From assembly GCA_032718475.1 (NCBI GenBank), contig JAUCBJ010002569.1, forward strand, positions 1 through 61,472: a stretch of DNA of 61,472 nt. Direction: 5' to 3'. Below are positions 15,721 through 61,472 of this stretch, in pieces. Under the pieces are notes generated by a model that saw only the letters and a program-made list of their open reading frames with translations, searched no databases and was not told the DNA's origin. Every line of letters begins with the position of its first letter. Position 1 is the stretch's first letter. The position numbers and the translations under genes were made by a program. The DNA comes from Nemertoderma westbladi (Eukaryota > Animalia > Xenacoelomorpha).

Positions 15721-15980
15721 ATTTCATTAAGCAGCACAGTCAAGCCACCGGTACCGGTAGGCTAATTCAGTAATTAGCACATTGATGTACAGTACAGCAG
15801 TACAGAGTCTCCAAAATCCTGCACAGTAGGGAGTGCAGGTATAGTATCAAAAACAAAGACCCAAGACCCATCAACTCACCTCCTACTGTAAGAAAGATCA
15901 TCCCTCCAATAGTAATATCAGACCCTAAGCTAGTCCAACATCGTAGGTCTATCATAGGCACTCGAGCTCAGGTCAAGCGG

Positions 15981-26883: not shown

Positions 26884-26891
26884 ATAAACCA

Positions 26892-27662: not shown

Positions 27663-28091
27663 TGTAAAAGCTTTTGTGGGATATAACTGGCCCTTTTGCT
27701 TCGCAATCCAGTTTCCCTCAATGCGCTCAAATACTCTAAAGAAAAACTCCCTAACTCAAATGATGCAAGCTACCGGCTGATTGGCTGATTTGCTGTACGT
27801 ATGGCCTCTTTGTTCTGTTCGATCAACCAACCAGAGCAAGGTCAACCAAGCAGAGTGATTCATCCTGTGTGTTGGCTAAGGGCTGCAAAAACCCGAATAG
27901 TTCGGCATTTAGACATTCGTGGAATCTGTGGAATATGGAGCTCTGCCAATGAGAGCTTTTCCTCTTTGTGTTGAAAGCTACCTGCAACAGCTCACAGGGT
28001 TCAGTGTGTTGGTTTTTCCAGAGCCTAGAACATCGGCTATGGAATTATTCTGAATTATTCCAACATTAGAACGACTTTAATTATAAGAACA
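27663..28091 (+). mobile_element. Candidate 3' LTR of the Bel/Pao element
   Basis: Purine run GGGAGCGG followed by TGT..., ending ...AACA at 28091. No matching 5' copy in the window. An alternative candidate starts at 24438 after GGAGTGGGTG. Confidence 0.3.
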
Positions 28092-30495: not shown

Positions 30496-30594
30496 TATAG
30501 ATGATCTCTTCAGTGTCCTTTATGGGCGTCTCAAAAAAAGTCATGTTTGTTTATATTGCTTATCAATTATATATCATTCATATGAAAGACACAG

Positions 30595-34366: not shown

Positions 34367-37300
34367 CTAGGTATTTGTTGATTGTTTCAACAAAGCAGAA
34401 AAATATCCCATTTCATTAGCCAGTAATTCATCAGGGGTGCCAAATTCAACAACCCTTCCACCATCCATTACTAAGATCTTATCTGAGTCCATGACAGTAT
34501 TAAGTCTGTGGGCGATAGTAAGAACAGTACAGTCAGAAAACTTACTTCTTATTGTCTCTTGAATAACCAAATCAGTTTTATTATCAACATTGGCTGTAGC
34601 TTCATCCACAACAATTATCTTATTCTTCCTCAGCATAGCTCTAGCAAGACAGATTAGTTGTCTTTCACCAACACTAAAATTAGTTCCATACTCGAATACT
34701 TTTGAATTTAAACCAATATTATCAATATTTATTGATAAAGATGATTTTCTTGATATTTTATTTTCTTTATTTGATACTTCATTGGACATATTATTATGTT
34801 TAAAAAAAACACCATGTTCTTCAAGAATACTTGATGTCCTTTCCCTAACAGCTTTATCAAGCTTTACATCACCCAATGTCATCCAAATATCTGCATCGGA
34901 GAATTCTTTAAAAGGGTCAAGATTATATCGCAGAGTTCCAGAGAATAATACAGGATCTTGAGGAATAATTGAAATACATTTTCTGAGATCATTGAGATTC
35001 ACTTTGGTCACATCAGTACCACCAATCATCAAAGAACCAGTTGTTTCAGTTAGTTGGAACAATGCAGCTGTTAACGAACTCTTTCCTGCACCAGTACGTC
35101 CAACAATTCCTATTTTTTCTCTGGCATTGACATTAAAAGAAACATTTATTAAAACTTGTGGCAGCGATTCATGGTATGATAAACAGAGTTCTTGAAAGCA
35201 GATTGATGGATTATTGATAAATACATTTGGAAGATTTGGTTCCCCACTTTTGACAATCATATTTTTCTCTTGATCCAATTTTGTATAATTATAAACTCTT
35301 CCAACTGATGTCATGAGTTCTTCAACTTCTGAAATTGTTCTCACCAAATACTGGAATGCCATCATGGTTGTGAAAGCATAAGTAAGTGATAAACCAACTG
35401 ATCCGACATCTAAACTATCGGAGTTGAGCACAGCTGTAAGTGCTGTAAATGTTATAAATATGTTACAAAATGCATCAATGGAGAAGCCAAACCATCTACT
35501 AACAAGTAGATAAACAATCCAAACACGAGAATGAGCATCTAAATGACCATATAATTCATATTCAAATCGCTTTCTTGCATCTAGTGCTCGAATGACACTC
35601 AGTCCCTCCAATGAAACGGATATGTGGTGGAATATTGGAGTGCGAAGTGATCCCTCAATTTTTTTAACTTGTTTTGATGTCTGTACATAAAAGTGTCTCT
35701 GAGTTATTAAGATAATAGCCAAAGGAAATACAGGAATCAACATATATGGGTTCATGATAATCACAAATACAACAATGCAAAAAAATTTGATGCCAATGCG
35801 AATGACATCAGTCAATTTTTGCAAGAGTAAATTATCTATTATACCAATATCCTTCGAAAATTTATTCAAAATATCACCAACACTGTTTGTGTCAAAGAAA
35901 TAACACGTGGCATACATTATCTTCTGAAACATGTCATTATGCAATCGAATGGCAGCCCGTAACAATGTTTTAATTGTGACAATCGTAGATGATCCAGTGA
36001 GAATTAAAGAGATAAAGATTAAGCAGCCATAAACAGCAATGATATAATCTCTTGTAAATGGCAGCATTAACATACTAGTTACCAAATAGTAAAAAAATGA
36101 TATATTAACATAAGATGGAATAATATCTAATATGATATTGTTATTAATAAGGGAACCATTGGCAAAATAAAGTGTATTTGAATTATTATTGTATGGAAAG
36201 TCGATGCCAGCCCTATTTCCATAAACTGACCATTGTGCTAACCACCAATCACACATCATTTTACTTATTTGCACTAAAAGTGCAAAGAACAGCATAGTAA
36301 ATAATAAAGTGAAACCTGTTGCTTTTATATAGTAAATATAATAACCCATATTTATATTTGGATTACTTGTTGTAGATGAACCTTTCAATGTACTAATCCT
36401 TTCAGTACTCATAACTTTATACTGAGGAGTTACATTATCTGCCATATCTTTCTGTATTTTATTTTCATTAATGTGAAATATATGGTGTTGATTCAGATAA
36501 TTGTAAACATCTATATATTTTCCATATATCACAGACTTTCCTTTATCAAGTGCAAGAACTCTAGTAGATTGTTGCAAATATTGAATTTGGTGTGTTGCCA
36601 AGATCACTGTTTTTTCTTTCAAATATCCCCTAATGCACTTTTCAAACAAACAAGCGCCAACATTCGTATCAACAGCTGAAAGTGGATCATCAAGAAGATA
36701 AATATCTGCATCAGCATAAACAGCTCTAGCTAATGATATTCTAGCCCGTTGACCCCCTGATAATGCTAATCCACGTTCACCAACCAAGGAATTGTGTCCC
36801 TCTGGAAAACTACCAATATCATCTTCAAGTTCACAAACTTTTATGACTTTATAATATTTATCCTCAATAAACTCTTCTCCAAATACAACATTCTCCATCA
36901 CTGTACCCGAAAATACCCAACCACTTTGTGGACTATAGCTAAGTTTACCACCAACTTGGATTCTCCCAGATACTAAATGTAATTCTCCAAGGATTGTATT
37001 CAACAAAGATGACTTCCCAGACCCAACAGGGCCAACAATGCAAATAAGTTCTGATGAATTTGCCATTAGATTCATATTCTCAATGGCATAGGAACTCAAA
37101 TTCTTTACACTATAACGAGAGCATACGGAATCCAATATTAAAGTTCCTCTGTTTGTTATACATGATATACTATTGCTTATATTTTCCTGAATTTCATTCG
37201 AAGGTGAATGGGAGAGTAAGATTTCATTTTCATCCATAACTCTGTAGCCATCAGTTGTTGGTTCTTTTAAATCTATAAGAAGAAAATTCTCAATTCGCTG

Positions 37301-37422
37301 TATTGAAACTCGAACTCTTATAAAATGCATAACCCCTTTCAAGCCCAGTAGAATCACAAAATGATTAAAAACAAATAAGAGACTCATAACTGGAAAAACT
37401 GTTGTTGGATTTAGTTCATTTC
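34367..37422 (-). CDS. ABCC4-like: ABC transporter subfamily C (MRP4-like), exon 3: end of TMD1, NBD1, TMD2, NBD2
   Basis: Walker A GPVGSGKS and GRTGAGKS; signatures LSGGQRAR and FSVGERQL; LLDDPLSAVD; DEATANVD; IAHRL. Acceptor TTCTTTAG|GA, phase 1. Confidence 0.93.
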
Positions 37423-39108
37423 CTAAAGAATAAGCAATGAAGAGGTCACATGCATGCATCCAGCCATCCCCATAAATGTCAGCAATCTCCATGAATGTAA
37501 GTTCATAATTGTTTATAAGGTCCTAACCAATCATGAAAAACATTTAAGGAAAGTTATTATAAATATATGATATATGATATGATTAATTTCGTTATTTTTA
37601 TTTAGTAGGTCATATTAATTGATACAATCATTAGTAATATGTGAGGGAGTAAGGGTCTAAGCCTCGATACCAAAAATATAAATATTAAAAATTTAATTCT
37701 TATTTCCAATACACAAAACCAAAATCTGTGTTCTAGAACACTAATATATATTTTTTTTAATGTATCTGATCCATCCCGTTACACTCCACCTACCTGGAGA
37801 ATGGGGAGGTGGACTGATTTACGAATCAGTTCAGGTATGTAGCCAATATTCCATACCAGATAATGTAGGAAGCAATGTTAGCCATGAGATGATTTAATAA
37901 CTCATCCCAGGGGAAAGGGGCTAATACAGGGTAAAGGGGGCATGAGAATATAGGAGTGGAATAAGCCAAACAATGGGAGGACCACAGCTGGTTGTAACAA
38001 GGTGTATCGATTGGTTGGCAGGTTTACTTGTTAGGGCTGTGTAATACATTCCCCCTAATTTTCCTCATATATAAACATACTAGTAAAGAATACTCAATTC
38101 AAAATAACTATTCACATACTTGTATGTGAAGTAGCACTTTACAGTGTGATGATCTGAGTGCTTTGTTACACGAACAAACATAGTGAGTGAGTGAAAATAA
38201 AGCCACGAGGATCAGAACACTGTAAAATACTTTGCAACAAGTATGTATGTAGTTTTATTCCAAAATTGTAGCATTACGAAATGATTGTATATATATTTAT
38301 AAGTGATAGAAACTGCACAAAATAAATTAGTTGCTGTATAAATAAATGTAAAAATGACATAAATTTTGTTATGAAAAAGTTAGCTTATATTTATGGTGGC
38401 ATTTGGAGCCATGTTAATAGTTTATAGCTACTGGATATTAATAGCAACTGGTAGGTAATGCCTTTCTGGTTGTCAGGCAATTAATTATAAATTCCAACTA
38501 TTGACTATGTGGTAACCATGACGACATGACTTTACGGTCACACCGTCGGGGCATTACATAAATAATAATACACCAATACAATACTAAATGTACAGGCCAA
38601 TAAAATAATGTAATCTCCTCTAAAGTTGTAAGGGGCTAAATAACAATTCGCTGTTAATACTAGTGGCATTGAGTAATCCTACAATTTTGGAAAAATATAC
38701 TATGCAACTATAAAATTACATAGCACATGTGTCTAGAATGAAGAATATCCATGGAAACAGCAATCTTTTGTGGAATAATAAAACAATATAATGTTAAATA
38801 AAATTATTATTTATAATTATAATTATTTTTAAATTATTTGGGTCGGAATTATCCTATGCTGGATCTGGACAATGAACATTTTCCATGAAAATTTCATTCG
38901 ATCTCTGAGTGGGTCGGAAATGTCCCTGTCGCAATTGCCCGGGTCGGAATTGTCGGATCATGCCACTGTAAACTGATCATATCCCTTAAGCTTCCTTCAT
39001 CCCATTCAGACCTTATCTCATTCAGAGCATCATAATAATCGCATTTTACATATAAAATATGATGAAAGCTTTAAAGGACATTCAAGATCTGGCTGGATGC
39101 TTACGGAC

Positions 39109-39925
39109 CTGTTTCTCCTCCTAAGAAATGATGGGACACAAAGATGATGAATGTGACAATTAAAATGAAACTTTCTGGCATTCGAGTTAATAATCCTTCA
39201 CAGAAATATGTCTTTTGTGTCTCCTTTATTTCTGAACTACGTGATTTATTAATTCTTCTACAGAAAGCCTTCTCCCAAGCATATAATTTGATGATTCGCA
39301 TACCCATAATAACTTCATTCATTAGTTTTATTCTTGAATCTGTCAATTCACAAGCTTTCTTTTTATAGTGGGCTATCCATTTACCAATAAATATTTGAGA
39401 GGGAAAATATATACAGAAAAAAATAAATCCAAAAACAGAAGCCAGACCAATGAGTCTATAGATTAGTCCAAATATCACAAAAATAACCAAAGGCATAATA
39501 ATGGAATATGACATTAGAGGTAGAGCTGTTGTAAAAATATCACTATCAGTTGATATTAAATTGTTGACCTTCCCAATTGTAACTTTATTTAACGTTCTTC
39601 GATTCATATTTAGGAGTTTTCTGTAAATCATGGTTTGCAGTCCAATCCGTATCCTGACTTCTATGATATAGAAATGGTGAAACATTCTATGGCCTCCCAC
39701 AGAACTGAATACAGAACACAGAGTCAATGTAAAAGTATATAGTAATGCTTCAGTTGAACCCATGGTGCTATTGGGAACAAACTTCTGCAATAATTTCCCT
39801 AATACAAGGCTCTGTGCTATATTGCAAGATACTACAAATATAGGTAAAGGCAATAAAACCAGAATATCTCGCCATAATGTTAGGAAGAGAGCGCGATGTA
39901 GGAGTGGATTCTTCTTCTTGCATTC
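39109..39925 (-). CDS. ABCC4-like: ABCC4-like exon 2 (TMD1)
   Basis: Acceptor TTTTCTTCTAG|GAA (phase 0). MIYRKLL, GKVNNLISTD and MNEVIMGMRIIKLYAWEKAF are present. Donor ACAG|GTCCGT (phase 1) is compatible with exon 3. Confidence 0.88.
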
Positions 39926-41940: not shown

Positions 41941-42284
41941 CGCGAGGTAGGCCTAGGCCTAGCAGTTCAGTCTGTCACTCTGCAAGTTGGGTCTTGGGCA
42001 TCTACGTGATGCAGGCCGTCCCGAGCACGTGAACGTGAAATGCCGTTATCTTGAGGATAATTATTTTATTTGTGAATGCATAATAATTGAGGTCAAATTG
42101 GGCTATTCTGTAGAGATTTTTGCCAAAATTGCTGCTCAGCAGGCAGGAAACTGTGTATAACAGTTGTCTATGGAGCATATTTTCAAATTATTTTCGCCAT
42201 TTGATGGAAGAAGATTAAGAGATTGGGCGTCTTTGATTGCAGTATTCTCCATTTCCAATTTATCACAAATTTCGACAATATTAT

Positions 42285-42912
42285 GATTGTAAGCAGATCC
42301 AATCCGCTACACACCACCAATATTGGGATTGTAAGTGGATCCATCCCGCTACACGCCACCAATATTTGGATTGTAAGCGGATCCATCCTGTTAGCTACAC
42401 GCCACCAATATTTGGATTGTAAGCAGATCCATCCCGCTACACGCAACCAATATTTGGATTGTAAGTGGATCCATCTCGCTACACACCACCAATATTTGGA
42501 TTGTAAGCGGATCCATCCCGCTACACGCCACCAATATTTCGATTGTAAGCGGATCAATCCCACTACATGCCACCAATATTTGGATTGTAAGCGGATCCAT
42601 CCCGCTACACGCCACAAATATTTGGATTGTAAGCGGATCCATCCCGCTACACGCCAACAAATATTTGGATTGTAAGCGGATCCATCCCGCTACACACCAC
42701 CAATATTTGGATTGTAAGCGGACCCATCTCGCTACACGCCACCAATATTTGGATTGTAAGCGGATCCATCCCGCTACACGCCACCAATATTTCGATTGTA
42801 AGCGGATCCATGCCACCAATATTTGGATTGTAAACGGATCCATCACGCTACACGCCACAAATATTTGGATTGTAAGCGGATCCATCCCGCTACACGCAAC
42901 AAATATTTGGAT
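42285..42912. repeat. 42-bp minisatellite (TTTGGATTGTAAGCGGATCCATCCCGCTACACGCCACCAATA), about 15 copies
   Basis: Visible tandem array, intronic. Confidence 0.95.
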
Positions 42913-45700: not shown

Positions 45701-47082
45701 GCCATGAAAGTAGGCGATGCCCCTGACAATGTTTGTTAGAGGGTGGGTCGATAATGTCAAAAACTGTCGTTATCAGATTTTGATTCTCTAATAACTTTGT
45801 GAGATTTAAAGCTGTCACGTTGAAAATTTCGAGATATCAATACTATCAGGAGGTAAATGCTATTCCTACACCTACATGTACGTGTACCGTAAGTATACAG
45901 GTTGGGTTTTCTACAATATTCATAATTTTCGTTAATAACTTTAAACCCACCTCTGAAACCTGCTTCTTTACGATTTTGCCCAGAAGGTGTAGCTGTGTAG
46001 GCTATGTAGGTGTGAAACAATGTTTTTCATTGTTTAACATTATCTGAATTTTGTAAAGTTTTTATTATCTATGTAAATAAATGAAACTTATGAGACAGAA
46101 AAAAAAGCTGTATAAGCATAGGCGTAGCATTTACCCCCATACTATCAAAATTTGAGATTAATGCCAGACATTCCATTCAACTGACTGCTATAGTTGGTAA
46201 AATATGTAAACATTATAAACAGCCTCCCATTTCTGACAATCCATTCAAGCTATGCTCCAGTGGATGAATATATTACAAATATATTGCATTATTTGTTTAT
46301 TTACATTCGTGCTTGTTATACAAGATATATACATATATATATAGATGGAAAAGACAGTAACCACTTCCTTTTATATCATCGCTTTGCCTTTAGTACCTTA
46401 ACAATATAAATCATAACAAAAAAAAAACCCTCAAAATAAATTTAAATTTATCTCTGCAGTGGCCTTGAAGGTCACTGCAATGGCGTTGGCTCTCATAGGA
46501 CAAGAAGTGGAACTTTTATATAAGTATAATTTTATTCACTGCGAGGCCATTTGAATTTAAGCACATATCACACAACTTAATTTTTATTTTATTTAATTTA
46601 GTACTTACTTGATAGACAACCACCATGCAACATTCATCTATCTTATCATTCATCTATAATATGGTTCTCAATCTCTACTTTCATCCCGCTATTTGAATTA
46701 TTATTTTGTGATGCGAGGGGTGTCTAGGCAAACCCGAGGATGATAAATGGTCGACCATTAATTAATAAATGGTCACCATAAATTATAAGATGGTCGACTA
46801 TAAATTAAAAGAAACAAATGCATATGATTGGTGGTTTAGAAGTGAGGTAATTTTACCATAAATTCAAGGAAACAAGCGCATGTGGTTGGTGGTTTCAAAA
46901 ACAAGAGAATTTTGAATGTCACAATTGTCCTTTAATTACAGTGGTTGAATTCGCACACATAATTGTCAGAGCGATTTACTTTTATCGAAATTGACACAAA
47001 TTGACAAAAAAATTATATTTTAAAAGGATAAAATGACATCAAAATGTAATTTAAATGTACAAAATTTTGTACAAATACTTAG

Positions 47083-48455
47083 CTACAACTAGGACCGGCA
47101 TGCTGGAGTGTAGCTGTATTTTTAAGAGTGCTGTGCCAGCTTGTCAACAAAATTGCGCCGCCACTTAAAGGCCAGTGTCCTTTAAGTTGCATCTCAAGAA
47201 AGTCATGAGCTGTCCACCATGCTTATTCACTCCATGAGGGCGCCAAAACACAAGATTATGCACTGGCTGGTCCTCACGGCGAAAGCAATGTCCTGCAAAG
47301 CGGAGGTGGCTTTGTTCTAGTGTCAAGCTTGGGGGAACCAATGAGACACCTCCAATGTTATATAGTGTCTGGTTGCAGATGTGTGCATTGTACTTGACAC
47401 AGTGAATCCCGGCATAGCATTCTTGTGAATGTGCCATCCAGAGATTTGGTGTCCTCAGCAGTTAGAGCCCAGCATGGACTCCCATAGAGGAGTACTGGAA
47501 CTGCTGCTGCTCTACATACTCTTAAGTATGCGCTGAATTCTATGTGACTTCCAAATCCTGCAAAGCCTATTCAAGGCTGCCTATGCCTTTCCTTTGCGTA
47601 TTCGAAGGTCCTCGCCTGACTTCCGGATCCATGATCCAAGGTTACAGAGCTAAGAGAGGTGTCATGCTCAAGCATACCATCCTATGAGCTTATGCTCATG
47701 CGGTCAGACACTTGCTGAGGACTTTCAAAGTTAACTGTCAAAATGTTGGTCTTTTTGGAGTTAATAAAAATACCAACACTAGAAGCAGTCTGTTCTAATG
47801 AGCTGAGGAGCCGTTGGACTCCCTCTAGTGATTCTGAAAGTACTCCTAAGTCATCAGCAAAGTCTAGATCAGTTAGATACTTAGCAGGATTTCCTTAACT
47901 TCTGGAGCCAGTAGGTGGAGTTGCCATCACCCCATCATCATTATGATGATCTAAGGACATGCGCATTATGATGATCTAAGGACATGCGTAGAACATAGTC
48001 AACCACAATTATGAACAAGAATGGTGCAAGTGTGTCTCCCTGGAGGACTCCCCATAACACTTCAAATGGTTCTGTGTCACCGCCAACAGTAGACACAAAT
48101 GTTGTCGAACCATCATATACTGATCTGATTGCTGCAATAATTTCATAAGGAATCCAATATAATGAACGTATGCTGAACATACATGAGTGAGAGACTGAAT
48201 CAAAGGCCTTGAAGAAGTCAACATAGATAACAGCCAGATGCCTGCCTTTCTTTTTTGATAACTCTTCAATTATCCTTCTAAGTGCCAAAATGGGCTCCAT
48301 GGTCCCATGACCTTTACAGAACCCATTCTGATTTCCACGGAGCAGACTCTCAATGGGATCCCTGATGCGGTTTAATAAAATACTATTGTATCAATGAGAT
48401 TCCCCGAAAAGAACCATAGAGTGTTAGGTTGCCCTTCTTAGGAACTGGCACCAAC
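47083..48455 (-). pseudogene. Second copy of the RTE family (5'-truncated, frameshifted)
   Basis: High similarity to 29114-30495. Begins LVPVPKKGNLTLYGSFRG. Small internal duplication near 47940-47990. Confidence 0.9.
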
Positions 48456-49017
48456 TTATTTGTTTTCATTTCTAGTGTTGTTCTGTACATGTCTACTATG
48501 ATGGGATAGATGAGCTTTAAACACTCAGGTATTTTAAAGGGGGGACACCATCTTCTCCACTGGCAAATACTTAGTAAGAACTAATCTATCTGTGCAACTA
48601 ACAAGGAATTTGCTAAATATTATCAGTTTTTTCAACTGGGTATTCAGCCTAATTTGATCGCCGACCAGGTTCGGCGATGACTCAATACAACACGGCACGG
48701 TCTGAACATTTTCCATATTTCCATGATTACATTATTAACAACACTAGATTTATATAAATCAATATATAATGTTTATTGATAGTAACAATGTGTAGGCAAG
48801 CTGTATTTTTCGAGGTGTTTGTTATTATACATTTATTATAGGAAGGGATCTAGGGGTCTTAGCCTCGAATGATAAGTTTATTTTACCGAAAATAACTTAT
48901 CTTTTATTGGCGCAATTGTAGGACTAATCCCATCACATCCGTACTTTTTAACTGGGTAGTGTACAAATTTAGGAATCGCGTAATTTTTCTTGAAATTAAT
49001 ATCTCATATCTCTCCAA

Positions 49018-49060
49018 ACCACGTACGCGTTTCGACCTTACTGGGTCTCATCAGCGTGGT
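49018..49060 (-). ncRNA. Minimal type I hammerhead ribozyme (intact copy)
   Basis: ACCACG-CTGATGA-GACC(CAGTAA)GGTC-GAAA-CGCGTA-CGTGGT: 6-bp stem I, 4-bp stem II, palindromic stem III ACGCGT, GUA cleavage triplet. Confidence 0.93.
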
Positions 49061-49203
49061 GTCGGATTCGAACCTGGGACCTAATAATAATAACAAACAC
49101 CTCGAAAAATACAGCTTGCCTACACATTGTTACTATCAATAATCAAAAATCAGGGGCTAATAAAATGGCAGCTGGCTTTGAAATTAATACTCCATATCTC
49201 AAG

Positions 49204-49262
49204 AACCTGTGGCCTAGTGGTTGTAGTCTCGGCTTCCACCTCGAGGTGCCAGGTTTGAATCC
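49204..49262 (+). promoter_or_regulatory. tRNA-derived Pol III head (A and B boxes), copy 1
   Basis: A box TGGCCTAGTGG at 49210-49220. B box is mutated (GGTTTGAATCC). Loop CTTCCAC resembles tRNA-Gly(TCC). Confidence 0.7.
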
Positions 49263-49265
49263 GAC

Positions 49266-49308
49266 ACCATGCTGATGAGACCCAGTAAGGTCGAAACGCG
49301 TATGTGGT
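49266..49308 (+). ncRNA. Minimal type I hammerhead ribozyme
   Basis: CTGATGA at 49272-49278, GAAA at 49293-49296, cleavage predicted after 49302. Stem I has two G-U pairs. Confidence 0.88.
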
Positions 49309-49611
49309 TTGGAGAGATATGAGATATTAATTTCAAGAAAAATTACGCGATTCCTAAATTTGTACACTACCCGGTTAAAAAGTACGCATGTGATGGGATT
49401 AGTCCTACAATTGCGCCAATATAAGATAAGTTATTTTCGGTAAAATAAACTTATCATTCGAGGTTACCCCTAGATCCCTTCCTATAATAAATGTATAATA
49501 ACAAACACCTCGAAAAATACAGCTTGCCTACACATTGTTACTATCAATAATCAAAAATCAGGGGCTAATAAAATGGCAGCTGGCTTTGAAATTAATACTC
49601 CATATCTCAAG

Positions 49612-49670
49612 AACCTGTGGCCTAGTGGTTGTAGTCTCGGCTTCCACCTCGAGGTCCCAGGTTCGAATCC
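49612..49670 (+). promoter_or_regulatory. tRNA-derived Pol III head (A and B boxes), copy 2
   Basis: A box TGGCCTAGTGG and consensus B box GGTTCGAATCC at 49660-49670. No acceptor stem, so this is not a tRNA gene. Confidence 0.78.
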
Positions 49671-49673
49671 GAC

Positions 49674-49716
49674 ACAACGCTGATGAGACCCAGTAAAGTC
49701 GAAACGCGTACGTGGT
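49674..49716 (+). ncRNA. Minimal type I hammerhead ribozyme with one mismatch each in stems I and II
   Basis: ACAACG-CTGATGA-GACC(CAGTAA)AGTC-GAAACGCGTA-CGTGGT. Confidence 0.8.
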
Positions 49717-50429
49717 TTGGAGAGATATGAGATATTAATTTCAAGAAAAATTACGCGATTCCTAAATTTGTACACTACCCGGTTAAAAAGTACGCATGTG
49801 ATGGGATTAGTCCTACAATTGCGCCAATAAAAGATAAGTTATTTTCGGTAAAATAAACTTATCATTTGAGGTTAAGACCCCTAGATTCCTTCCTATAATA
49901 AATGTATAATATATAATGTAGTATATTATGTATCGCATGTCCGAGTTCTCTCGACCTAGTAGTAGTAGTATATTATGTAGGCCTAGAACAACTGTGCTGT
50001 TGACAACAACATACAATAATGTTCTTAATCCAATCGAAAGTAAAAAACGTGTAGGCCTATAACAAATACGGATAAAAATTAACCAATCACATTCAGATTC
50101 AATACATCTGTAATTGATACAAAAGGGTTACTACGTTTCCCATTCTACTGTTCAGAAGCAGCTGTTGAAAGAGGCTAACCCAAAGGTGACAAAATTGCAG
50201 CGAAAAATAAACTCCGTCATAGAGAATACCGCAATTGTGGACCAAATGATTGCAGTCACACTGAAAGATACAATAAAATAATACCCTTTGGATTCCTAAT
50301 CCATGCCTGTATAGATGGTTGGTCCAGAATGGTACTTTAGGCAACAGTAACCAATAACAACCCAAATGTAATAGCTAACTTTCTCCTTGAAGCTCTCAAG
50401 ATCTACGATTGCCGTGGCTTTTAGAAACA

Positions 50430-50531: not shown

Positions 50532-53500
50532 CATAAGATGATAATTGATGTTAACGACATACTGACTAACAGGGGGTTGGTATGTATATATTAAATTAAA
50601 TTAAAGGAAGAACAGGAGTCTTACACCCCCAATAAAAAATATAGAATCAGGACATTTAGCCCAAAATATTTCTCGACCCCTAGGGTCATCGAAAGAACAA
50701 CAAACACACAAACACAAACAAATATAAATACATGCTAAACATACAGGTATGTGTCGCAACCCTAACCCTAAGCCTACCCGCCATACACTAAATGATACCG
50801 TTAATAAACTGCACAATAGCTAAGCCTATATTCTATAAGAAAATATATGACAATTTTGTCGCCGTGAAAGGGGTATGACTGAGGCAAAAATAATTAATTT
50901 GTGAAAAATATGGTTGCGTTTCGGTGTCTTGGACCAGTACGCGCTAATCCTCGACACCTCGTCAGCTGGACAGGGAATTAGCCAAGCCTATCTATAATGC
51001 ACCAATGACCTAAAATAATCGCACCATCAACTCTGTTACCACCTAGCCCAAAACAGAAGTCAGACCACAGAACACAGGAACCCTACCCTATAGGCCTATG
51101 GTAAGTAAATATGTTACCAATGGGAAACTGGTGGAATGCTAGGGCACACACACAGTACAAAATTTAAATAAGATTTTATGATTTGCAGTAATGTTGGAAT
51201 TCTGCTCCACTTTCATAAGATGATAATTGATGTTAACGACATACTGACTAACAGGGGGTTGGTATGTATATATTAAATTAAATTAAAGGAAGAACAGGAG
51301 TCTTACACCCCCAATAAAAAATATAGAATCAGGACATTTAGCCCAAAATATTTCTCGACCCCTAGGGTCATCGAAAGAACAACAAACACACAAACACAAA
51401 CAAATATAAATACATGCTAAACATACAGGTATGTGTCGCAACCCTAACCCTAAGCCTACCCGCCATACACTAAATGATACCGTTAATAAACTGCACAATA
51501 GCTAAGCCTATATTCTATAAGAAAATATATGACAATTTTGTCGCCGTGAAAGGGGTATGACTGAGGCAAAAATAATTAATTTGTGAAAAATATGGTTGCG
51601 TTTCGGTGTCTTGGACCAGTACGCGCTAATCCTCGACACCTCGTCAGCTGGACAGGGAATTAGCCAAGCCTATCTATAATGCACCAATGACCTAAAATAA
51701 TCGCACCATCAACTCTGTTACCACCTAGCCCAAAACAGAAGTCAGACCACAGAACACAGGAACCCTACCCTATAGGCCTATGGTAAGTAAATATGTTACC
51801 AATGGGAAACTGGTGGAATGCTAGGGCACACACACAGTACAAAATTTAAATAAGATTTTATGATTTGCAGTAATGTCGGAATTCTGCTCCACTTTCATAA
51901 GATGATAATTGATGTTAACGACATACTGACTAACAGGGGGTTGGTATGTATATATTAAATTAAATTAAAGGAAGAACAGGAGTCTTACACCCCCAATAAA
52001 AAATATAGAATCAGGACATTTAGCCCAAAATATTTCTCGACCCCTAGGGTCATCGAAAGAACAACAAACACACAAACACAAACAAATATAAATACATGCT
52101 AAACATACAGGTATGTGTCGCAACCCTAACCCTAAGCCTACCCGCCATACACTAAATGATACCGTTAATAAACTGCACAATAGCTAAGCCTATATTCTAT
52201 AAGAAAATATATGACAATTTTGTCGCCGTGAAAGGGGTATGACTGAGGCAAAAATAATTAATTTGTGAAAAATATGGTTGCGTTTCGGTGTCTTGGACCA
52301 GTACGCGCTAATCCTCGACACCTCGTCAGCTGGACAGGGAATTAGCCAAGCCTATCTATAATGCACCAATGACCTAAAATAATCGCACCATCAACTCTGT
52401 TACCACCTAGCCCAAAACAGAAGTCAGACCACAGAACACAGGAACCCTACCCTATAGGCCTATGGTAAGTAAATATGTTACCAATGGGGAACTGGTGGAA
52501 TGCTTGGGCACACACACAGTACAAAATTTAAATAAGATTTTATGATTTGCAGTAATGTCGGAATTCTGCTCCACTTTCATAAGATGATAATTGATGTTAA
52601 CGACATACTGACTAACAGGGGGTTGGTATGTATATATTAAATTAAATTAAAGGAAGAACAGGAGTCTTACACCCCCAATAAAAAATATAGAATCAGGACA
52701 TTTAGCCCAAAATATTTCTCGACCCCTAGGGTCATCGAAAGAACAACAAACACACAAACACAAACAAATATAAATACATGCTAAACATACAGGTATGTGT
52801 CGCAACCCTAACCCTAAGCCTACCCGCCATACACTAAATGATACCATTAATAAACTGCACAATAGCTAAGCCTATATTCTATAAGAAAATATATGACAAT
52901 TTTGTCGCCGTGAAAGGGGTATGACTGAGGCAAAAATAATTAATTTGTGAAAAATATGGTTGCATTTCGGTGTCTTGGACCAGTACGCGCTAATCCTCGA
53001 CACCTCGTCAGCTGGACAGGGAATTAGCCAAGCCTATCTATAATGCACCAATGACCTAAAATAATCGCACCATCAACTCTGTTACCACCTAGCCCAAAAC
53101 AGAAGTCAGACCACAGAACACAGGAACCCTACCCTATAGGCCTATGGTAAGTAAATATGTTACCAATGGGAAACTGGTGGAATGCTAGGGCACACACACA
53201 GTACAAAATTTAAATAAGATTTTATGATTTGCAGTAATGTCGGAATTCTGCTCCACTTTCATAAGATGATAATTGATGTTAACGACATACTGACTAACAG
53301 GGGGTTGGTATGTATATATTAAATTAAATTAAAGGAAGAACAGGAGTCTTACACCCCCAATAAAAAATATAGAATCAGGACATTTAGCCCAAAATATTTC
53401 TCGACCCCTAGGGTCATCGAAAGAACAACAAACACACAAACACAAACAAATATAAATACATGCTAAACATACAGGTATGTGTCGCAACCCTAACCCTAAG

Positions 53501-56500
53501 CCTACCCGCCATACACTAAATGATACCGTTAATAAACTGCACAATAGCTAAGCCTATATTCTATAAGAAAATATATGACAATTTTGTCGCCGTGAAAGGG
53601 GTATGACTGAGGCAAAAATAATTAATTTGTGAAAAATATGGTTGCGTTTCGGTGTCTTGGACCAGTACGCGCTAATCCTCGACACCTCGTCAGCTGGACA
53701 GGGAATTAGCCAAGCCTATCTATAATGCACCAATGACCTAAAATAATCGCACCATCAACTCTGTTACCACCTAGCCCAAAACAGAAGTCAGACCACAGAA
53801 CACAGGAACCCTACCCTATAGGCCTATGGTAAGTAAATATGTTACCAATGGGAAACTGGTGGAATGCTAGGGCACACACACAGTACAAAATTTAAATAAG
53901 ATTTTATGATTTGCAGTAATGTCGGAATTCTGCTCCACTTTCATAAGATGATAATTGATGTTAACGACATACTGACTAACAGGGGGTTGGTATGTATATA
54001 TTAAATTAAATTAAAGGAAGAACAGGAGTCTTACACCCCCAATAAAAAATATAGAATCAGGACATTTAGCCCAAAATATTTCTCGACCCCTAGGGTCATC
54101 GAAAGAACAACAAACACACAAACACAAACAAATATAAATACATGCTAAACATACAGGTATGTGTCGCAACCCTAACCCTAAGCCTACCCGCCATACACTA
54201 AATGATACCGTTAATAAACTGCACAATAGCTAAGCCTATATTCTATAAGAAAATATATGACAATTTTGTCGCCGTGAAAGGGGTATGACTGAGGCAAAAA
54301 TAATTAATTTGTGAAAAATATGGTTGCGTTTCGGTGTCTTGGACCAGTACGCGCTAATCCTCGACACCTCGTCAGCTGGACAGGGAATTAGCCAAGCCTA
54401 TCTATAATGCACCAATGACCTAAAATAATCGCACCATCAACTCTGTTACCACCTAGCCCAAAACAGAAGTCAGACCACAGAACACAGGAACCCTACCCTA
54501 TAGGCCTATGGTAAGTAAATATGTTACCAATGGGAAACTGGTGGAATGCTAGGGCACACACACAGTACAAAATTTAAATAAGATTTTATGATTTGCAGTA
54601 ATGTCGGAATTCTGCTCCACTTTCATAAGATGATAATTGATGTTAACGACATACTGACTAACAGGGGGTTGGTATGTATATATTAAATTAAATTAAAGGA
54701 AGAACAGGAGTCTTACACCCCCAATAAAAAATATAGAATCAGGACATTTAGCCCAAAATATTTCTCGACCCCTAGGGTCATCGAAAGAACAACAAACACA
54801 CAAACACAAACAAATATAAATACATGCTAAACATACAGGTATGTGTCGCAACCCTAACCCTAAGCCTACCCGCCATACACTAAATGATACCGTTAATAAA
54901 CTGCACAATAGCTAAGCCTATATTCTATAAGAAAATATATGACAATTTTGTCGCCGTGAAAGGGGTATGACTGAGGCAAAAATAATTAATTTGTGAAAAA
55001 TATGGTTGCGTTTCGGTGTCTTGGACCAGTACGCGCTAATCCTCGACACCTCGTCAGCTGGACAGGGAATTAGCCAAGCCTATCTATAATGCACCAATGA
55101 CCTAAAATAATCGCACCATCAACTCTGTTACCACCTAGCCCAAAACAGAAGTCAGACCACAGAACACAGGAACCCTACCCTATAGGCCTATGGTAAGTAA
55201 ATATGTTACCAATGGGAAACTGGTGGAATGCTAGGGCACACACACAGTACAAAATTTAAATAAGATTTTATGATTTGCAGTAATGTCGGAATTCTGCTCC
55301 ACTTTCATAAGATGATAATTGATGTTAACGACATACTGACTAACAGGGGGTTGGTATGTATATATTAAATTAAATTAAAGGAAGAACAGGAGTCTTACAC
55401 CCCCAATAAAAAATATAGAATCAGGACATTTAGCCCAAAATATTTCTCGACCCCTAGGGTCATCGAAAGAACAACAAACACACAAACACAAACAAATATA
55501 AATACATGCTAAACATACAGGTATGTGTCGCAACCCTAACCCTAAGCCTACCCGCCATACACTAAATGATACCGTTAATAAACTGCACAATAGCTAAGCA
55601 TATATTCTATAAGAAAATATATGACAATTTTGTCACCGTGAAAGGGGTATGACTGAGGCAAAAATAATTAATTTGTGAAAAATATGGTTGCGTTTCGGTG
55701 TCTTGGACCAGTACGCGCTAATCCTCGACACCTCGTCAGCTGGACAGGGAATTAGCCAAGCCTATCTATAATGCACCAATGACCTAAAATAATCGCACCA
55801 TCAACTCTGTTAGCACCAATCCCAAAACAGAAGTCAGACCACAGAACACAGGAACCCTACCCTATAGGCCTATGGTAAGTAAATATGTTACCAATGGGAA
55901 ACTGGTGGAATGCTAGGGCACACACACAGTACAAAATTTAAATAAGATTTTATGATTTGCAGTAATGTCGGAATTCTGCTCCACTTTCATAAGATGATAA
56001 TTGATGTTAACGACATACTGACTAACAGGGGGTTGGTATGTATATATTAAATTAAATTAAAGGAAGAACAGGAGTCTTACACCCCCAATAAAAAATATAG
56101 AATCAGGACATTTAGCCCAAAATATTTCTCGACCCCTAGGGTCATCGAAAGAACAACAAACACACAAACACAAACAAATATAAATACATGCTAAACATAC
56201 AGGTATGTGTCGCAACCCTAACCCTAAGCCTACCCGCCATACACTAAATGATACCGTTAATAAACTGCACAATAGCTAAGCCTATATTCTATAAGAAAAT
56301 ATATGACAATTTTGTCGCCGTGAAAGGGGTATGACTGAGGCAAAAATAATTAATTTGTGAAAAATATGGTTGCGTTTCGGTGTCTTGGACCAGTACGCGC
56401 TAATCCTCGACACCTCGTCAGCTGGACAGGGAATTAGCCAAGCCTATCTATAATGCACCAATGACCTAAAATAATCGCACCATCAACTCTGTTACCACCT

Positions 56501-59500
56501 AGCCCAAAACAGAAGTCAGACCACAGAACACAGGAACCCTACCCTATAGGCCTATGGTAAGTAAATATGTTACCAATGGGAAACTGGTGGAATGCTAGGG
56601 CACACACACAGTACAAAATTTAAATAAGATTTTATGATTTGCAGTAATGTCGGAATTCTGCTCCACTTTCATAAGATGATAATTGATGTTAACGACATAC
56701 TGACTAACAGGGGGTTGGTATGTATATATTAAATTAAATTAAAGGAAGAACAGGAGTCTTACACCCCCAATAAAAAATATAGAATCAGGACATTTAGCCC
56801 AAAATATTTCTCGACCCCTAGGGTCATCGAAAGAACAACAAACACACAAACACAAACAAATATAAATACATGCTAAACATACAGGTATGTGTCGCAACCC
56901 TAACCCTAAGCCTACCCGCCATACACTAAATGATACCGTTAATAAACTGCACAATAGCTAAGCCTATATTCTATAAGAAAATATATGACAATTTTGTCGC
57001 CGTGAAAGGGGTATGACTGAGGCAAAAATAATTAATTTGTGAAAAATATGGTTGCGTTTCGGTGTCTTGGACCAGTACGCGCTAATCCTCGACACCTCGT
57101 CAGCTGGACAGGGAATTAGCCAAGCCTATCTATAATGCACCAATGACCTAAAATAATCGCACCATCAAGTCTGTTACCACCTAGCCCAAAACAGAAGTCA
57201 GACCACAGAACACAGGAACCCTACCCTATAGGCCTATGGTAAGTAAATATGTTACCAATGGGAAACTGGTGGAATGCTAGGGCACACACACAGTACAAAA
57301 TTTAAATAAGATTTTATGATTTGCAGTAATGTCGGAATTCTGCTCCACTTTCATAAGATGATAATTGATGTTAACGACATACTGACTAACAGGGGGTTGG
57401 TATGTATATATTAAATTAAATTAAAGGAAGAACAGGAGTCTTACACCCCCAATAAAAAATATAGAATCAGGACATTTAGCCCAAAATATTTCTCGACCCC
57501 TAGGGTCATCGAAAGAACAACAAACACACAAACACAAACAAATATAAATACATGCTAAACATACAGGTATGTGTCGCAACCCTAACCCTAAGCCTACCCG
57601 CCATACACTAAATGATACCGTTAATAAACTGCACAATAGCTAAGCCTATATTCTATAAGAAAATATATGACAATTTTGTCGCCGTGAAAGGGGTATGACT
57701 GAGGCAAAAATAATTAATTTGTGAAAAATATGGTTGCGTTTCGGTGTCTTGGACCAGTACGCGCTAATCCTCGACACCTCGTCAGCTGGACAGGGAATTA
57801 GCCAAGCCTATCTATAATGCACCAATGACCTAAAATAATCGCACCATCAACTCTGTTACCACCTAGCCCAAAACAGAAGTCAGACCACAGAACACAGGAA
57901 CCCTACCCTATAGGCCTATGGTAAGTAAATATGTTACCAATGGGAAACTGGTGGAATGCTAGGGCACACACACAGTACAAAATTTAAATAAGATTTTATG
58001 ATTTGCAGTAATGTCGGAATTCTGCTCCACTTTCATAAGATGATAATTGATGTTAACGACATACTGACTAACAGGGGGTTGGTATGTATGTATTAAATTA
58101 AATTAAAGGAAGAACAGGAGTCTTACACCCCCAATAAAAAATATAGAATCAGGACATTTAGCCCAAAATATTTCTCGACCCCTAGGGTCATCGAAAGAAC
58201 AACAAACACACAAACACAAACAAATATAAATACATGCTAAACATACAGGTATGTGTCGCAACCCTAACCCTAAGCCTACCCGCCATACACTAAATGATAC
58301 CGTTAATAAACTGCACAATAGCTAAGCCTATATTCTATAAGAAAATATATGACAATTTTGTCGCCGTGAAAGGGGTATGACTGAGGCAAAAATAATTAAT
58401 TTGTGAAAAATATGGTTGCGTTTCGGTGTCTTGGACCAGTACGCGCTAATCCTCGACACCTCGTCAGCTGGACAGGGAATTAGCCAAGCCTATCTCTAAT
58501 GCACCAATGACCTAAAATAATCGCACCATCAACTCTGTTACCACCTAGCCCAAAACAGAAGTCAGACCACAGAACACAGGAACCCTACCCTATAGGCCTA
58601 TGGTAAGTAAATATGTTACCAATGGGAAACTGGTGGAATGCTAGGGCACACACACAGTACAAAATTTAAATAAGATTTTATGATTTGCAGTAATGTCGGA
58701 ATTCTGCTCCACTTTCATAAGATGATAATTGATGTTAACGACATACTGACTAACAGGGGGTTGGTATGTATATATTAAATTAAATTAAAGGAAGAACAGG
58801 AGTCTTACACCCCCAATAAAAAATATAGAATCAGGACATTTAGCCCAAAATATTTCTCGACCCCTAGGGTCATCGAAAGAACAACAAACACACAAACACA
58901 AACAAATATAAATACATGCTAAACATACAGGTATGTGTCGCAACCCTAACCCTAAGCCTACCCGCCATACACTAAATGATACCGTTAATAAACTGCACAA
59001 TAGCTAAGCCTATATTCTATAAGAAAATATATGACAATTTTGTCGCCGTGAAAGGGGTATGACTGAGGCAAAAATAATTAATTTGTGAAAAATATGGTTG
59101 CGTTTCGGTGTCTTGGACCAGTACGCGCTAATCCTCGACACCTCGTCAGCTGGACAGGGAATTAGCCAAGCCTATCTATAATGCACCAATGACCTAAAAT
59201 AATCGCACCATCAACTCTGTTACCACCTAGCCCAAAACAGAAGTCAGACCACAGAACACAGGAACCCTACCCTATAGGCCTATGGTAAGTAAATATGTTA
59301 CCAATGGGAAACTGGTGGAATGCTAGGGCACACACACAGTACAAAATTTAAATAAGATTTTATGATTTGCAGTAATGTCGGAATTCTGCTCCACTTTCAT
59401 AAGATGATAATTGATGTTAACGACATACTGACTAACAGGGGGTTGGTATGTATATATTAAATTAAATTAAAGGAAGAACAGGAGTCTTACACCCCCAATA

Positions 59501-61472
59501 AAAAATATAGATTCAGGACATTTAGCCCAAAATATTTCTCGACCCCTAGGGTCATCGAAAGAACAACAAACACACAAACACAAACAAATATAAATACATG
59601 CTAAACATACAGGTATGTGTCGCAACCCTAACCCTAAGCCTACCCGCCATACACTAAATGATACCGTTAATAAACTGCACAATAGCTAAGCCTATATTCT
59701 ATAAGAAAATATATGACAATTTTGTCGCCGTGAAAGGGGTATGACTGAGGCAAAAATAATTAATTTGTGAAAAATATGGTTGCGTTTCGGTGTCTTGGAC
59801 CAGTACGCGCTAATCCTCGACACCTCGTCAGCTGGACAGGGAATTAGCCAAGCCTATCTATAATGCACCAATGACCTAAAATAATCGCACCATCAACTCT
59901 GTTACCACCTAGCCCAAAACAGAAGTCAGACCACAGAACACAGGAACCCTACCCTATAGGCCTATGGTAAGTAAATATGTTACCAATGGGACACTGGTGG
60001 AATGCTAGGGCACACACACAGTACAAAATTTAAATAAGATTTTATGATTTGCAGTAATGTCAGAATTCTGCTCCACTTTCATAAGATGATAATTGATGTT
60101 AACGACATACTGACTAACAGGGGGTTGGTATGTATATATTAAATTAAATTAAAGGAAGAACAGGAGTCTTACACCCCCAATAAAAAATATAGAATCAGGA
60201 CATTTAGCCCAAAATATTTCTCGACCCCTAGGGTCATCGAAAGAACAACAAACACACAAACACAAACAAATATAAATACATGCTAAACATACAGGTATGT
60301 GTCGCAACCCTAACCCTAAGCCTACCCGCCATACACTAAATGATACCGTTAATAAACTGCACAATAGCTAAGCCTATATTCTATAAGAAAATATATGACA
60401 ATTTTGTCGCCGTGAAAGGGGTATGACTGAGGCAAAAATAATTAATTTGTGAAAAATACGGTTGCGTTTCGGTGTCTTGGACCAGTACGCGCTAATCCTG
60501 GACACCTCGTCAGCTGGACAGGGAATTAGCCAAGCCTATCTATAATGCACCAATGACCTAAAATAATCGCACCATCAACTCTGTTACCACCTAGCCCAAA
60601 ACAGAAGTCAGACCACAGAACACAGGAACCCTACCCTATAGGCCTATGGTAAGTAAATATGTTACCAATGGGAAACTGGTGGAATGCTAGGGCACACACA
60701 CAGTACAAAATTTAAATAAGATTTTATGATTTGCAGTAATGTCGGAATTCTGCTCCACTTTCATAAGATGATAATTGATGTTAACGACATACTGACTAAC
60801 AGGGGGTTGGTATGTATATATTAAATTAAATTAAAGGAAGAACAGGAGTCTTACACCCCCAATAAAAAATATAGAATCAGGACATTTAGCCCAAAATATT
60901 TCTCGACCCCTAGGGTCATCGAAAGAACAACAAACACACAAACACAAACAAATATAAATACATGCTAAACATACAGGTATGTGTCGCAACCCTAACCCTA
61001 AGCCTACCCGCCATACACTAAATGATACCGTTAATAAACTGCACAATAGCTAAGCCTATATTCTATAAGAAAATATATGACAATTTTGTCGCCGTGAAAG
61101 GGGTATGACTGAGGCAAAAATAATTAATTTGTGAAAAATATGGTTGCGTTTCGGTGTCTTGGACCAGTACGCGCTAATCCTCGACACCTCGTCAGCTGGA
61201 CAGGGAATTAGCCAAGCCTATCTATAATGCACCAATGACCTAAAATAATCGCACCATCAACTCTGTTACCACCTAGCCCAAAACAGAAGTCAGACCACAG
61301 AACACAGGAACCCTACCCTATAGGCCTATGGTAAGTAAATATGTTACCAATGGGACACTGGTGGAATGCTAGGGCACACACACAGTACAAAATTTAAATA
61401 AGATTTTATGATTTGCAGTAATGTCGGAATTCTGCTCCACTTTCATAAGATGATAATTGATGTTAACGACAT
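50532..61472. repeat. 682-bp tandem array, 16 full near-identical units, continuing past the window end
   Basis: CATAAGATGATAATTG recurs at 50532+682k (51214 ... 61444). Only scattered substitutions between units. Confidence 0.99.
50916..50982 (-). ncRNA. Non-circularly permuted hammerhead ribozyme candidate, first of 16 copies at +682k (last 61146-61212)
   Basis: Minus strand reads GCTAATTC-CCTGT-CCAG-CTGACGA-GGTGTC-GAGGATTAGC-GCGT-A-CTGG-TCCAA-GACACC-GAAACGC. All core nucleotides and stems I, II and III are present. Confidence 0.8.

What the first reader, a model, noticed from the sequence alone, without database searches (positions are those of the whole stretch)
49178..49336. tRNA-derived Pol III promoter fused to a hammerhead and clamped by a 23-bp stem
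Seen: the A box, a Gly(TCC)-like loop and the B box run directly into hammerhead stem I. The whole cassette is enclosed by TTGAAATTAATA-CTC-CATATCTC (49178-49200) pairing with GAGATATG-AGA-TATTAATTTCAA (49314-49336). A further hairpin GATAAGTTATTTT-CGGT-AAAATAAACTTATC follows. Established: minimal type I hammerheads with a palindromic stem III are typical of Penelope-like elements and metazoan non-LTR retrozymes and can cleave as dimers; Schistosoma SMalpha is a SINE-like precedent. Inference: a SINE-retrozyme hybrid whose tandem transcript is cut into ~408-nt monomers that may circularise.
Basis: partly seen in the sequence, partly recalled or inferred. Interest (0 to 1): 0.8.

Follow-up and report, generated by a model that had tools for sequence, protein, structure and literature searches.

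The report
tRNA-promoter hammerhead jumping repeat
This is one slightly decayed copy of an abundant, non-coding jumping repeat of an animal, in which a tRNA-like promoter sequence runs straight into a predicted self-cutting hammerhead RNA (a design already known from blood flukes); its insertion pattern suggests it likely borrows a Penelope-type retrotransposon to move, while cutting and RNA circles remain untested.

Summary
In detail: A box, TCC loop, B box, hammerhead, 23-bp stem and hairpin are at the stated places and exceed chance. Contigs from three studies show a young, high-copy family whose majority alleles keep both boxes and the core. Corrections: the hammerhead is canonical type I, not minimal; the family unit is 411 nt; the tRNA isotype is unsettled; the clamp's 5' arm lies upstream of the predicted Pol III start, so it can only form in read-through, cut or circular RNA; a TTTT lies between the ribozymes; both direct copies here are damaged. 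Best reading: a Schistosoma SMalpha-type retrozyme (Pol III promoter, then hammerhead, in tandem), likely moved by a Penelope enzyme. Transcription, cleavage, circles and the partner element are not shown. The scan has noted tRNA-headed retrozymes and Penelope repeats before on other genomes. New member of a known kind; interest 0.38.

The parts
48761..48772 (+). Left copy of 12-bp AT-rich target-site duplication AATATATAATGT
   Evidence: a shared run this long in 3 of 2000 shuffles of the two 31-nt flanks; empty site not seen
48773..49082 (-). Inverted, 5'-truncated copy: starts just before the B box (no A box), carries the least damaged hammerhead (core from 49054, predicted cut after 49024) and ends in the tail
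48773..48828 (-). 56-nt A/C-rich tail, present at the end of the inverted arm, absent from the right end of the direct array
   Evidence: loose ends behind the equivalent place 49551 in 14 (X1) and 16 (X2) contigs with low agreement
49087..49494 (+). Direct unit 1 (408 bp; 3-nt deletion relative to the 411-bp family unit)
49178..49200 (+). 5' arm of the 23-bp stem; lies upstream of the predicted Pol III start (about 49203)
49203..49262 (+). tRNA-derived head: A box 49210-49220, CU-UCC-AC loop 49233-49239, B box 49252-49262 (CpG C>T change in this copy); predicted to refold as one hairpin rather than a cloverleaf
49260..49313 (+). Canonical type I hammerhead: distal stem I 49260-64/49309-13 (starts inside the B box), stem I 49266-71/49303-08, core 49272-78, stem II 49279-92, stem III one A-U pair plus CGCG (palindrome ACGCGU), predicted cut after 49302
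49314..49336 (+). 3' arm of the 23-bp stem; pairs equally with the 5' arm of the next unit (49586-49608)
49425..49455 (+). AT-rich hairpin holding the unit's only sense-strand TTTT (49434-49437), a possible leaky Pol III stop
49495..49907 (+). Direct unit 2 (411 bp plus 2): intact A box 49618 and B box 49660; hammerhead (core 49680, cut after 49710) has one mismatch in stem I (49676) and one in stem II (49697), both private relative to the family majority
49908..49919 (+). Right copy of the target-site duplication

Best explanation
This is a non-coding, high-copy tandem retroelement with a tRNA-derived A/B box directly upstream of a canonical type I hammerhead, inserted with the inverted-arm, tandem, tail and target-duplication layout of Penelope-like elements; Pol III likely transcribes it through a leaky TTTT into the next unit, paired hammerheads are predicted to cut out 411-nt monomers that may be circularised, and a Penelope reverse transcriptase/endonuclease likely copies the RNA into AT-rich DNA. 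Shown: the motifs, the insertion anatomy, the tandem junction, the high copy number and the intact majority alleles. Predicted by folding: two hammerheads join through ACGCGU into the double-hammerhead fold; the 23-bp stem pairs the 3' arm of one unit with the 5' arm of the next and so brings the ends of the cut monomer together. Inferred from related systems: Pol III use (SMalpha), ligation by a host tRNA ligase (animal retrozymes), two reverse-transcription start sites 56 nt apart making the tail (anole Penelope). This particular locus is probably a decayed daughter copy: unit 1 has the B-box change and unit 2 the ribozyme mismatches.
For: Insertion: inverted arm 48773-49082, two direct units, 12-bp duplication, 56-nt tail on the inverted arm only; the same layout is described for Adineta Pen2a (two direct pLTRs, adjacent inverted pLTR, 9-bp TSD, optional tail; PMC3846280) and as the PLE pattern (PMC8557442; PMC11167929). 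Family: 4210, 1808 and 98 contigs laid in X1, X2 and X5 (three studies), the largest identity class 95-99%; summed depth 5,900-29,000 times the unique flank in X1 and X2 (not a copy number; dividing by 31 gives a rough floor of about 190-940 copies); tandem joint 49905 to 49495 in X1, X2 and X4; no listed variant reaches 4% of depth in the A box, B box or core in X1 or X2, and the majority letters at 49676 and 49697 restore stems I and II. Folding: the unconstrained dimer of the inverted-arm copy folds into the double hammerhead; the 408-nt circle folds at z -3.4, 0 of 100 shuffles as good, clamp pair probability 1.0 in linear and circular monomer. No coding evidence: 4 frames gave no Pfam match above cut-off and the 69-codon frame hit only 4 unrelated repeat-rich proteins. 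Precedent: promoter followed by hammerhead, Pol III, tandem, in SMalpha (PMC6765202).
Against: No transcription, cleavage or circle was observed. A sense TTTT lies between successive hammerheads, and the strand bias against T-runs is not significant (P about 0.47-0.49). The family is young, so intact boxes do not prove selection. In the short Pol III transcript 49203-49437 the hammerhead stems of unit 1 are predicted not to form (stem I 0.0, stem II 0.12), and even with the clamp unit 1's stem I is only 0.01-0.33. The natural unit 1/unit 2 pair does not give a clean double hammerhead. The tail is 56 nt against 30-40 reported for PLEs. No autonomous Penelope was found in the window and no genome was available. 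Only 1 of 9 Xenopus retrozyme dimers cleaved in vitro (preprint), and hammerhead mutants did not stop insertion by anole Penelope in vitro.
Confidence: 0.65

Rival explanations
1. The unit is simply the terminal repeat (pLTR) of an autonomous Penelope element that begins with a tRNA-type promoter; these copies are ORF-less truncations, not a separate SINE-like family.
For: PLE layout of the insertion; one X5 contig of 1831 nt at depth 401 carries the B box-hammerhead region at about 90% identity with about 1.7 kb of other sequence (record 21); the 2026 preprint derives animal retrozymes from pLTRs; an earlier scan note reports such a case in another genome (e1-8669850, unchecked).
Against: The unit joins head to tail with itself and holds no frame with a credible homologue; the X5 contig has changed core letters (49682, 49702, 49709) and its other 1.7 kb could not be read.
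Confidence: 0.2
2. The tRNA head is a relic or a structural part of the RNA; Pol III either does not use it or stops at TTTT after about 235 nt, and multimers come from Pol II or read-through transcription.
For: TTTT at 49434 in every unit with a small hairpin predicted just upstream; the head is predicted to refold as a hairpin (pair probability 1.0 in unit 2); a review states that retrozymes seem to lack promoters and rely on read-through (PMC7761336); AATAAA lies at the unit end.
Against: Both boxes match consensus at tRNA-like spacing (52 nt against 50-72 in 21 viral hits) while the stems between them have decayed; U4 alone terminated poorly in a human-cell assay (preprint).
Confidence: 0.2
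3. The element moves by Penelope machinery without needing the ribozyme; the hammerhead is a passenger or only limits RNA levels.
For: This insertion spans three uncut hammerhead sites; a joint 49675 to 49818 that removes the whole hammerhead stands at 38 and 72 times flank depth in X1 and X2; anole Penelope inserted unprocessed RNA in vitro.
Against: The deletion form is only 0.2-0.8% of depth and rests on 18-20 letters on the short side of the joint; copying round a circle also gives uncut sites; majority alleles keep every stem paired.
Confidence: 0.2
4. An ordinary LINE-mobilised tRNA SINE with a twin-priming inversion.
For: tRNA head, target duplication, 5' inversion; RTE-like LINE fragments lie nearby.
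Against: The head lies mid-unit, there is no poly(A) end, units are tandem, the inverted arm runs 56 nt past the direct end to a point shared by other copies, and a BLAST of the element against the window finds no match to the LINE fragments.
Confidence: 0.05

Closest known systems
SMalpha / Sjalpha SINE-like hammerhead retroposons of Schistosoma (PMC6765202 passages; PMC8490949 passages and supplement part 6)
   Same: Pol III-type A and B boxes followed by a type I hammerhead with a short palindromic stem III, in tandem units of 300-400 bp; the promoter ends up at the 3' end of the cut monomer. By eye the A box differs by one letter.
   Different: B box to core is 9 nt here against about 38 nt in W36.2 (counted by eye), so the B box itself starts distal stem I; 23-bp clamp; one sense TTTT; no likeness seen by eye outside the boxes and core; host is not a schistosome (neighbouring ABC protein 34-41% to all listed hits); a Penelope-type insertion layout, which the passages I read do not report for SMalpha.
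Animal non-LTR retrozymes (PMC7229834; bioRxiv 10.64898/2026.07.22.740005)
   Same: Tandem non-coding units of 150-450 bp with a type I hammerhead each, GC under 50%, long target duplication, self-paired predicted circle; stem III of one pair plus a palindromic tetraloop as in axolotl HHR_Amex1, which needs dimers.
   Different: Carries an internal tRNA-type promoter, which a review says retrozymes seem to lack; cleavage and circles are shown there and not here.
Penelope-like element insertions, e.g. Adineta Pen2a and anole Poseidon (PMC3846280; PMC11167929; PMC8557442)
   Same: Two direct repeats plus an adjacent head-to-head inverted truncated copy, tail at one end only, 8-12-bp duplication, AT-rich target.
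   Different: No RT/GIY-YIG ORF; canonical instead of minimal hammerhead; tail 56 nt instead of 30-40.

Membership tests
Animal non-LTR retrozyme | Tandem 150-450-bp units, each with a type I hammerhead | tested here: met
   408/411-bp units; core in 2 of 2 direct units and in the inverted arm; unit 2 has two stem mismatches
Animal non-LTR retrozyme | Non-coding, GC under 50%, target duplication longer than 4 bp | tested here: met
   GC 158 of 411; 12-bp duplication; no credible protein match for the 4 frames tested
Animal non-LTR retrozyme | Highly self-paired predicted circle | tested here: met
   -97.5 kcal/mol, z -3.4, 0 of 100 shuffles
Animal non-LTR retrozyme | Self-cleavage of the RNA | not testable with these tools
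   Only folding predictions
Animal non-LTR retrozyme | Monomeric circular RNA in cells | not testable with these tools
   All runs laid were contigs, which cannot tell a circle from a tandem
SMalpha-type SINE-like retroposon | Pol III A and B boxes upstream of the hammerhead in a tandem unit | tested here: met
   majority alleles intact in X1 and X2
SMalpha-type SINE-like retroposon | Transcription by Pol III | not testable with these tools
   No raw RNA reads; T-run bias not significant
SMalpha-type SINE-like retroposon | Sequence homology to SMalpha beyond boxes and core (membership by descent) | tested here: inconclusive
   By-eye comparison with W36.2 and W27.2 only; none seen; no alignment run
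Penelope-mobilised (PLE-type) insertion | Partial tandem plus adjacent inverted 5'-truncated copy | tested here: met
Penelope-mobilised (PLE-type) insertion | Optional tail at one end; two recurring 3' ends | tested here: met
   56-nt tail on the inverted arm only; other copies end at 49551; longer than the 30-40 nt reported
Penelope-mobilised (PLE-type) insertion | Shared terminal sequence with an autonomous RT + GIY-YIG element in the same genome | not testable with these tools
   No genome held; none among the 12 frames of the window scanned
Minimal PLE hammerhead | Reduced helices I and II | tested here: not met
   6-bp stem I plus 5-bp distal stem, 4-bp stem II with 6-nt loop: canonical by PMC4209133
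Classical LINE-mobilised tRNA SINE | tRNA head at the 5' end and an A-rich or LINE-derived 3' end | tested here: not met
   Head at unit position 117-176; ends fixed at the tail; no match to LINE fragments in the window
tRNA gene | Cloverleaf recognised by tRNA models | tested here: not met
   ARAGORN 0; Rfam 0 at E up to 10 on the head

The most novel reading that the evidence does not exclude
A Penelope-dependent class of SINE: Pol III-driven, ribozyme-processed circular RNA elements that evolved repeatedly in animals, in which the B box does double duty as DNA promoter and as part of the hammerhead's stem I, and in which a clamp whose 5' arm lies upstream of the start site licenses cutting only in read-through multimers, so that only tandem copies propagate.
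Probability: 0.35. Interest if true: 0.6.

Novelty: new member of a known kind. Interest (0 to 1): 0.38.

Why it matters
A review leaves open which polymerase makes animal retrozyme RNA and which retrotransposon moves them (PMC7761336). This family carries a candidate answer to both in one young, high-copy element: a tRNA-type promoter and a Penelope-type insertion footprint. It is a convenient test case, but each half has a precedent (SMalpha for the promoter; the 2026 preprint for the Penelope link), so the gain is confirmation and extension to another animal lineage.

Tried and rejected
No genome was held, so copies and an autonomous partner could not be searched directly. No RNA holder listed; this says nothing on expression. 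X4 (organism B, RNA only by guess) holds one 441-nt contig at depth 13.8 that closes on the unit junction; a tandem in DNA gives the same, so it was not counted as a circle or as expression; X4's lack of cover on the neighbouring repeat at 49943-49974 and the zero shares of X7 and X9 prove nothing. A control stretch to tell whether X4 is RNA or DNA was not obtained, so that stays open. The metagenome scan for B box plus hammerhead core (120 loci from 40 of 64 parts) gave 46 loci rows with a stem II of 3 or more pairs, which by inspection are prokaryote- or phage-type tRNA genes followed by hammerhead-like cores or chance; none had the short palindromic stem III of this element. The stricter pattern found 0 in viral contigs. 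Selection against sense T-runs: not significant. Isotype of the head: 20 of 21 viral A+B hits are tRNA genes, of 11 named isotypes (3 unnamed), best alignment to a Met tRNA, so no assignment. Host lineage: the ABCC4-like neighbour is 34-41% identical to insects, fish, corals, lancelets and molluscs alike: animal, unresolved. Open frames in the unit: one Pfam hit below cut-off, 4 spurious repeat proteins; a 19-codon ATG frame ending at the tail end was too short to test. The 'head' pair probabilities printed used wrong indices and were discarded (redone for unit 2). Lunse et al. (PMC5785218) was not held; Ferbeyre 1998 was seen only through reviews. No look-alike of this stretch in the scan's earlier notes.

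Full report
Observation. The A box stands at 49210 and 49618, the B box at 49252 and 49660, the hammerhead core at 49272 and 49680, with predicted cuts after 49302 and 49710. An A box plus B box at tRNA spacing arose in 1 of 20000 dinucleotide shuffles of the unit, a B box alone in 53 of 20000; its span is 52 nt against 50-72 in 21 viral hits, 20 of which ARAGORN calls tRNA genes. The 23-nt arms are 87% complementary and the cassette folds at z -3.93. The head is not a tRNA gene. Rfam HH9 matches the three hammerheads only weakly (16-27 bits, gathering score 52), so the ribozyme call rests on the intact core and stems, not on a curated hit.

The real unit of the finding is larger. From 48773 to 49907 lies one insertion: an inverted copy on the minus strand that starts just before the B box and runs through the unit end into a 56-nt tail, then two direct units of 408 and 411 bp at 97% identity, the second ending without the tail, all between two copies of AATATATAATGT. 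A match this long between the flanks arose in 3 of 2000 shuffles; I did not see an empty site. This is the layout reported for Penelope-like elements: two direct repeats, an adjacent inverted one, a 9-bp duplication and an optional tail in Adineta Pen2a (PMC3846280, passages), the general pattern in PMC8557442 (passages) and PMC8969392 (passages), with the tail explained by two reverse-transcription start sites and AT-rich targets (PMC11167929, parts 1-2 of 4). The tail here is longer than the 30-40 nt reported.

Family. Of 11 runs listed, 6 hold the stretch (4 studies); I laid 4 of them on unit 2 plus its right flank. X1, X2 and X5 gave 4210, 1808 and 98 contigs, the largest class 95-99% alike; X1 or X2 may be the window's own source. 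Summed depth over the unit is 14,800-29,100 (X1) and 5,900-18,300 (X2) times the unique flank; the tool warns this is no copy number, and dividing by the 31 overlapping words gives a rough floor of 476-938 and 189-589 copies (my inference). Contigs bridge the unit end back to its start (411 nt) in X1, X2 and X4. Loose ends with low agreement follow position 49551 in 14 and 16 contigs, so other copies end at the same tail point in different flanks. In X1 and X2 no listed variant reaches 4% of depth in the A box, B box or core, and the majority letters at 49676 and 49697 restore stems I and II. One X5 contig carries changed core letters. Because the family is young this shows that the source copies were intact, not that they are under selection.

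Ribozyme. Stem I has 6 pairs plus a 5-pair distal stem that begins inside the B box, stem II has 4 pairs and a 6-nt loop, stem III is one A-U pair capped by CGCG. PMC4209133 (passages) calls this canonical, not minimal; the axolotl hammerhead with the same stem III cleaves well only as a dimer (PMC7229834, passages and parts 2-3 of 6). Two copies of the inverted-arm hammerhead fold without constraints into the double hammerhead through ACGCGU; the natural unit 1/unit 2 pair does not. Unit 1 carries three CpG C-to-T changes, one in the B box and two in stem I; unit 2 has a mismatch in each of stems I and II. So this locus is probably a decayed daughter.

The clamp. By tRNA numbering the Pol III start would be near 49203 (inference), downstream of the 5' arm. 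The stem therefore cannot enclose the first cassette of a primary transcript; it forms between the 3' arm of one unit and the 5' arm of the next, with probability 1.0 in the cut monomer, linear or circular, and the circle folds at z -3.4. In the short transcript 49203-49437 the hammerhead stems of unit 1 are predicted not to form, while with the clamp stem II reaches 1.0 and stem I 0.01-0.33. This suggests, as prediction on a damaged copy only, that the clamp favours cutting in read-through RNA. One TTTT per unit lies on the sense strand, inside the hairpin. U4 without structure terminated poorly in human cells but nearby structure helped (bioRxiv 10.1101/2020.09.11.294140, abstract and section 5), so read-through is plausible and unproven; the strand bias in T-runs is not significant.

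Comparison. Schistosoma SMalpha consists of a promoter followed by a hammerhead, appears to be Pol III-transcribed and occurs in tandem (PMC6765202, passages; PMC8490949, passages). In the latter's supplement (part 6 of 400 read) W36.2 and W27.2 show, by eye, tRNA-like boxes ahead of a hammerhead, with about 38 nt from B box to core in W36.2 against 9 here, and no other likeness. Animal retrozymes are proposed to be non-autonomous Penelope derivatives (bioRxiv 10.64898/2026.07.22.740005, parts 1-3 of 5; its supplements were not seen; only 1 of 9 dimers cleaved). A review says retrozymes seem to lack promoters and give no clue to their partner (PMC7761336, passages). tRNA-derived promoters in other non-autonomous retroelements are known (PMC10886601, search listing and passages). 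Seven searches listed no paper that reports a tRNA-headed hammerhead element with the Penelope inverted-and-tail footprint; the library lacks most subscription papers, Repbase reports were not searchable, and I read only some of the listed papers. The scan's own notes describe similar designs in other genomes, unchecked.

Host and context. The neighbouring ABCC4-like protein is 34-41% identical to the 120 best hits listed, animal wherever named, with no close relative: an animal of unresolved lineage, not a schistosome. The window holds BEL/Pao and LINE frames but no GIY-YIG among 12 frames scanned. The metagenome and viral scans found no eukaryotic relative.

Verdict. It works most likely like SMalpha and the animal retrozymes, and it meets every sequence-level test for them; cleavage, Pol III use, circles and the autonomous partner were not testable. 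Against the simple model stand the TTTT, a hammerhead-less deletion form at 0.2-0.8% of depth (short-sided joint) and the finding that anole Penelope inserts uncut RNA. New member of a known kind, with a useful Penelope footprint and an unusually compact promoter-ribozyme overlap. Interest 0.38; 0.6 if the double-duty B box and clamp-gated cleavage prove true.

Noticed in passing
window 50532-61472 (minus strand; core from 50965 and every 682 bp): A 682-bp satellite (16 full units, 0-6 differences from the first) carries a second, unrelated hammerhead-like motif: CUGACGA, a 6-bp stem II and GAAAC (0 of 10000 shuffles). The only all-Watson-Crick completing strand, GCGUA|CUGG, lies inside loop II (24 of 10000, chosen after the fact), an order that is not a circular permutation of the hammerhead; it would have to act as a pseudoknot or between neighbouring units. 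A stable hairpin is predicted to hide that strand.
   Followed up: partly
window 49675-49818 (joint in runs X1, X2): A deletion form joins the B box region directly to the sequence past the hammerhead, at 38 and 72 times flank depth; only 18-20 letters on the short side.
   Followed up: partly
run X5, record 21, matching window 49635-49743: An 1831-nt contig at depth 401 holds a 90%-alike B box and hammerhead region with changed core letters and 1.7 kb of other sequence; possibly a related longer element.
   Followed up: no
window 49491-49550 and 48773-48832: A 19-codon ATG frame runs through the tail and stops exactly at its end; could be the remnant of a Penelope ORF start or chance.
   Followed up: partly
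L005, L007, L021, L024, L046, L092, L094, L098, L105: Prokaryote- or phage-type tRNA genes followed within a few bases by complete type I hammerheads in metagenome contigs; recalled as known from phage tRNA clusters, not checked.
   Followed up: no
window 34367-37522 and 39101-39925 (minus): Intron-poor ABCC4/MRP4-like transporter gene, 34-41% identical to its best relatives.
   Followed up: partly
window 16200-24419 (+); 29112-30497 and 47080-48430; 1-2121; 12852-15544: A 2739-codon BEL/Pao frame, two 87%-alike LINE reverse-transcriptase fragments (RTE-like by my recall) and further LINE frames.
   Followed up: no
window 49938-49970: A 33-bp end of another very high-copy repeat with a (TAG)n tail just right of the insertion.
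   Followed up: no
window 2498-12869 and 42276-42912: An 18-bp satellite of about 563 copies and a 42-bp array of 15 copies.
   Followed up: no
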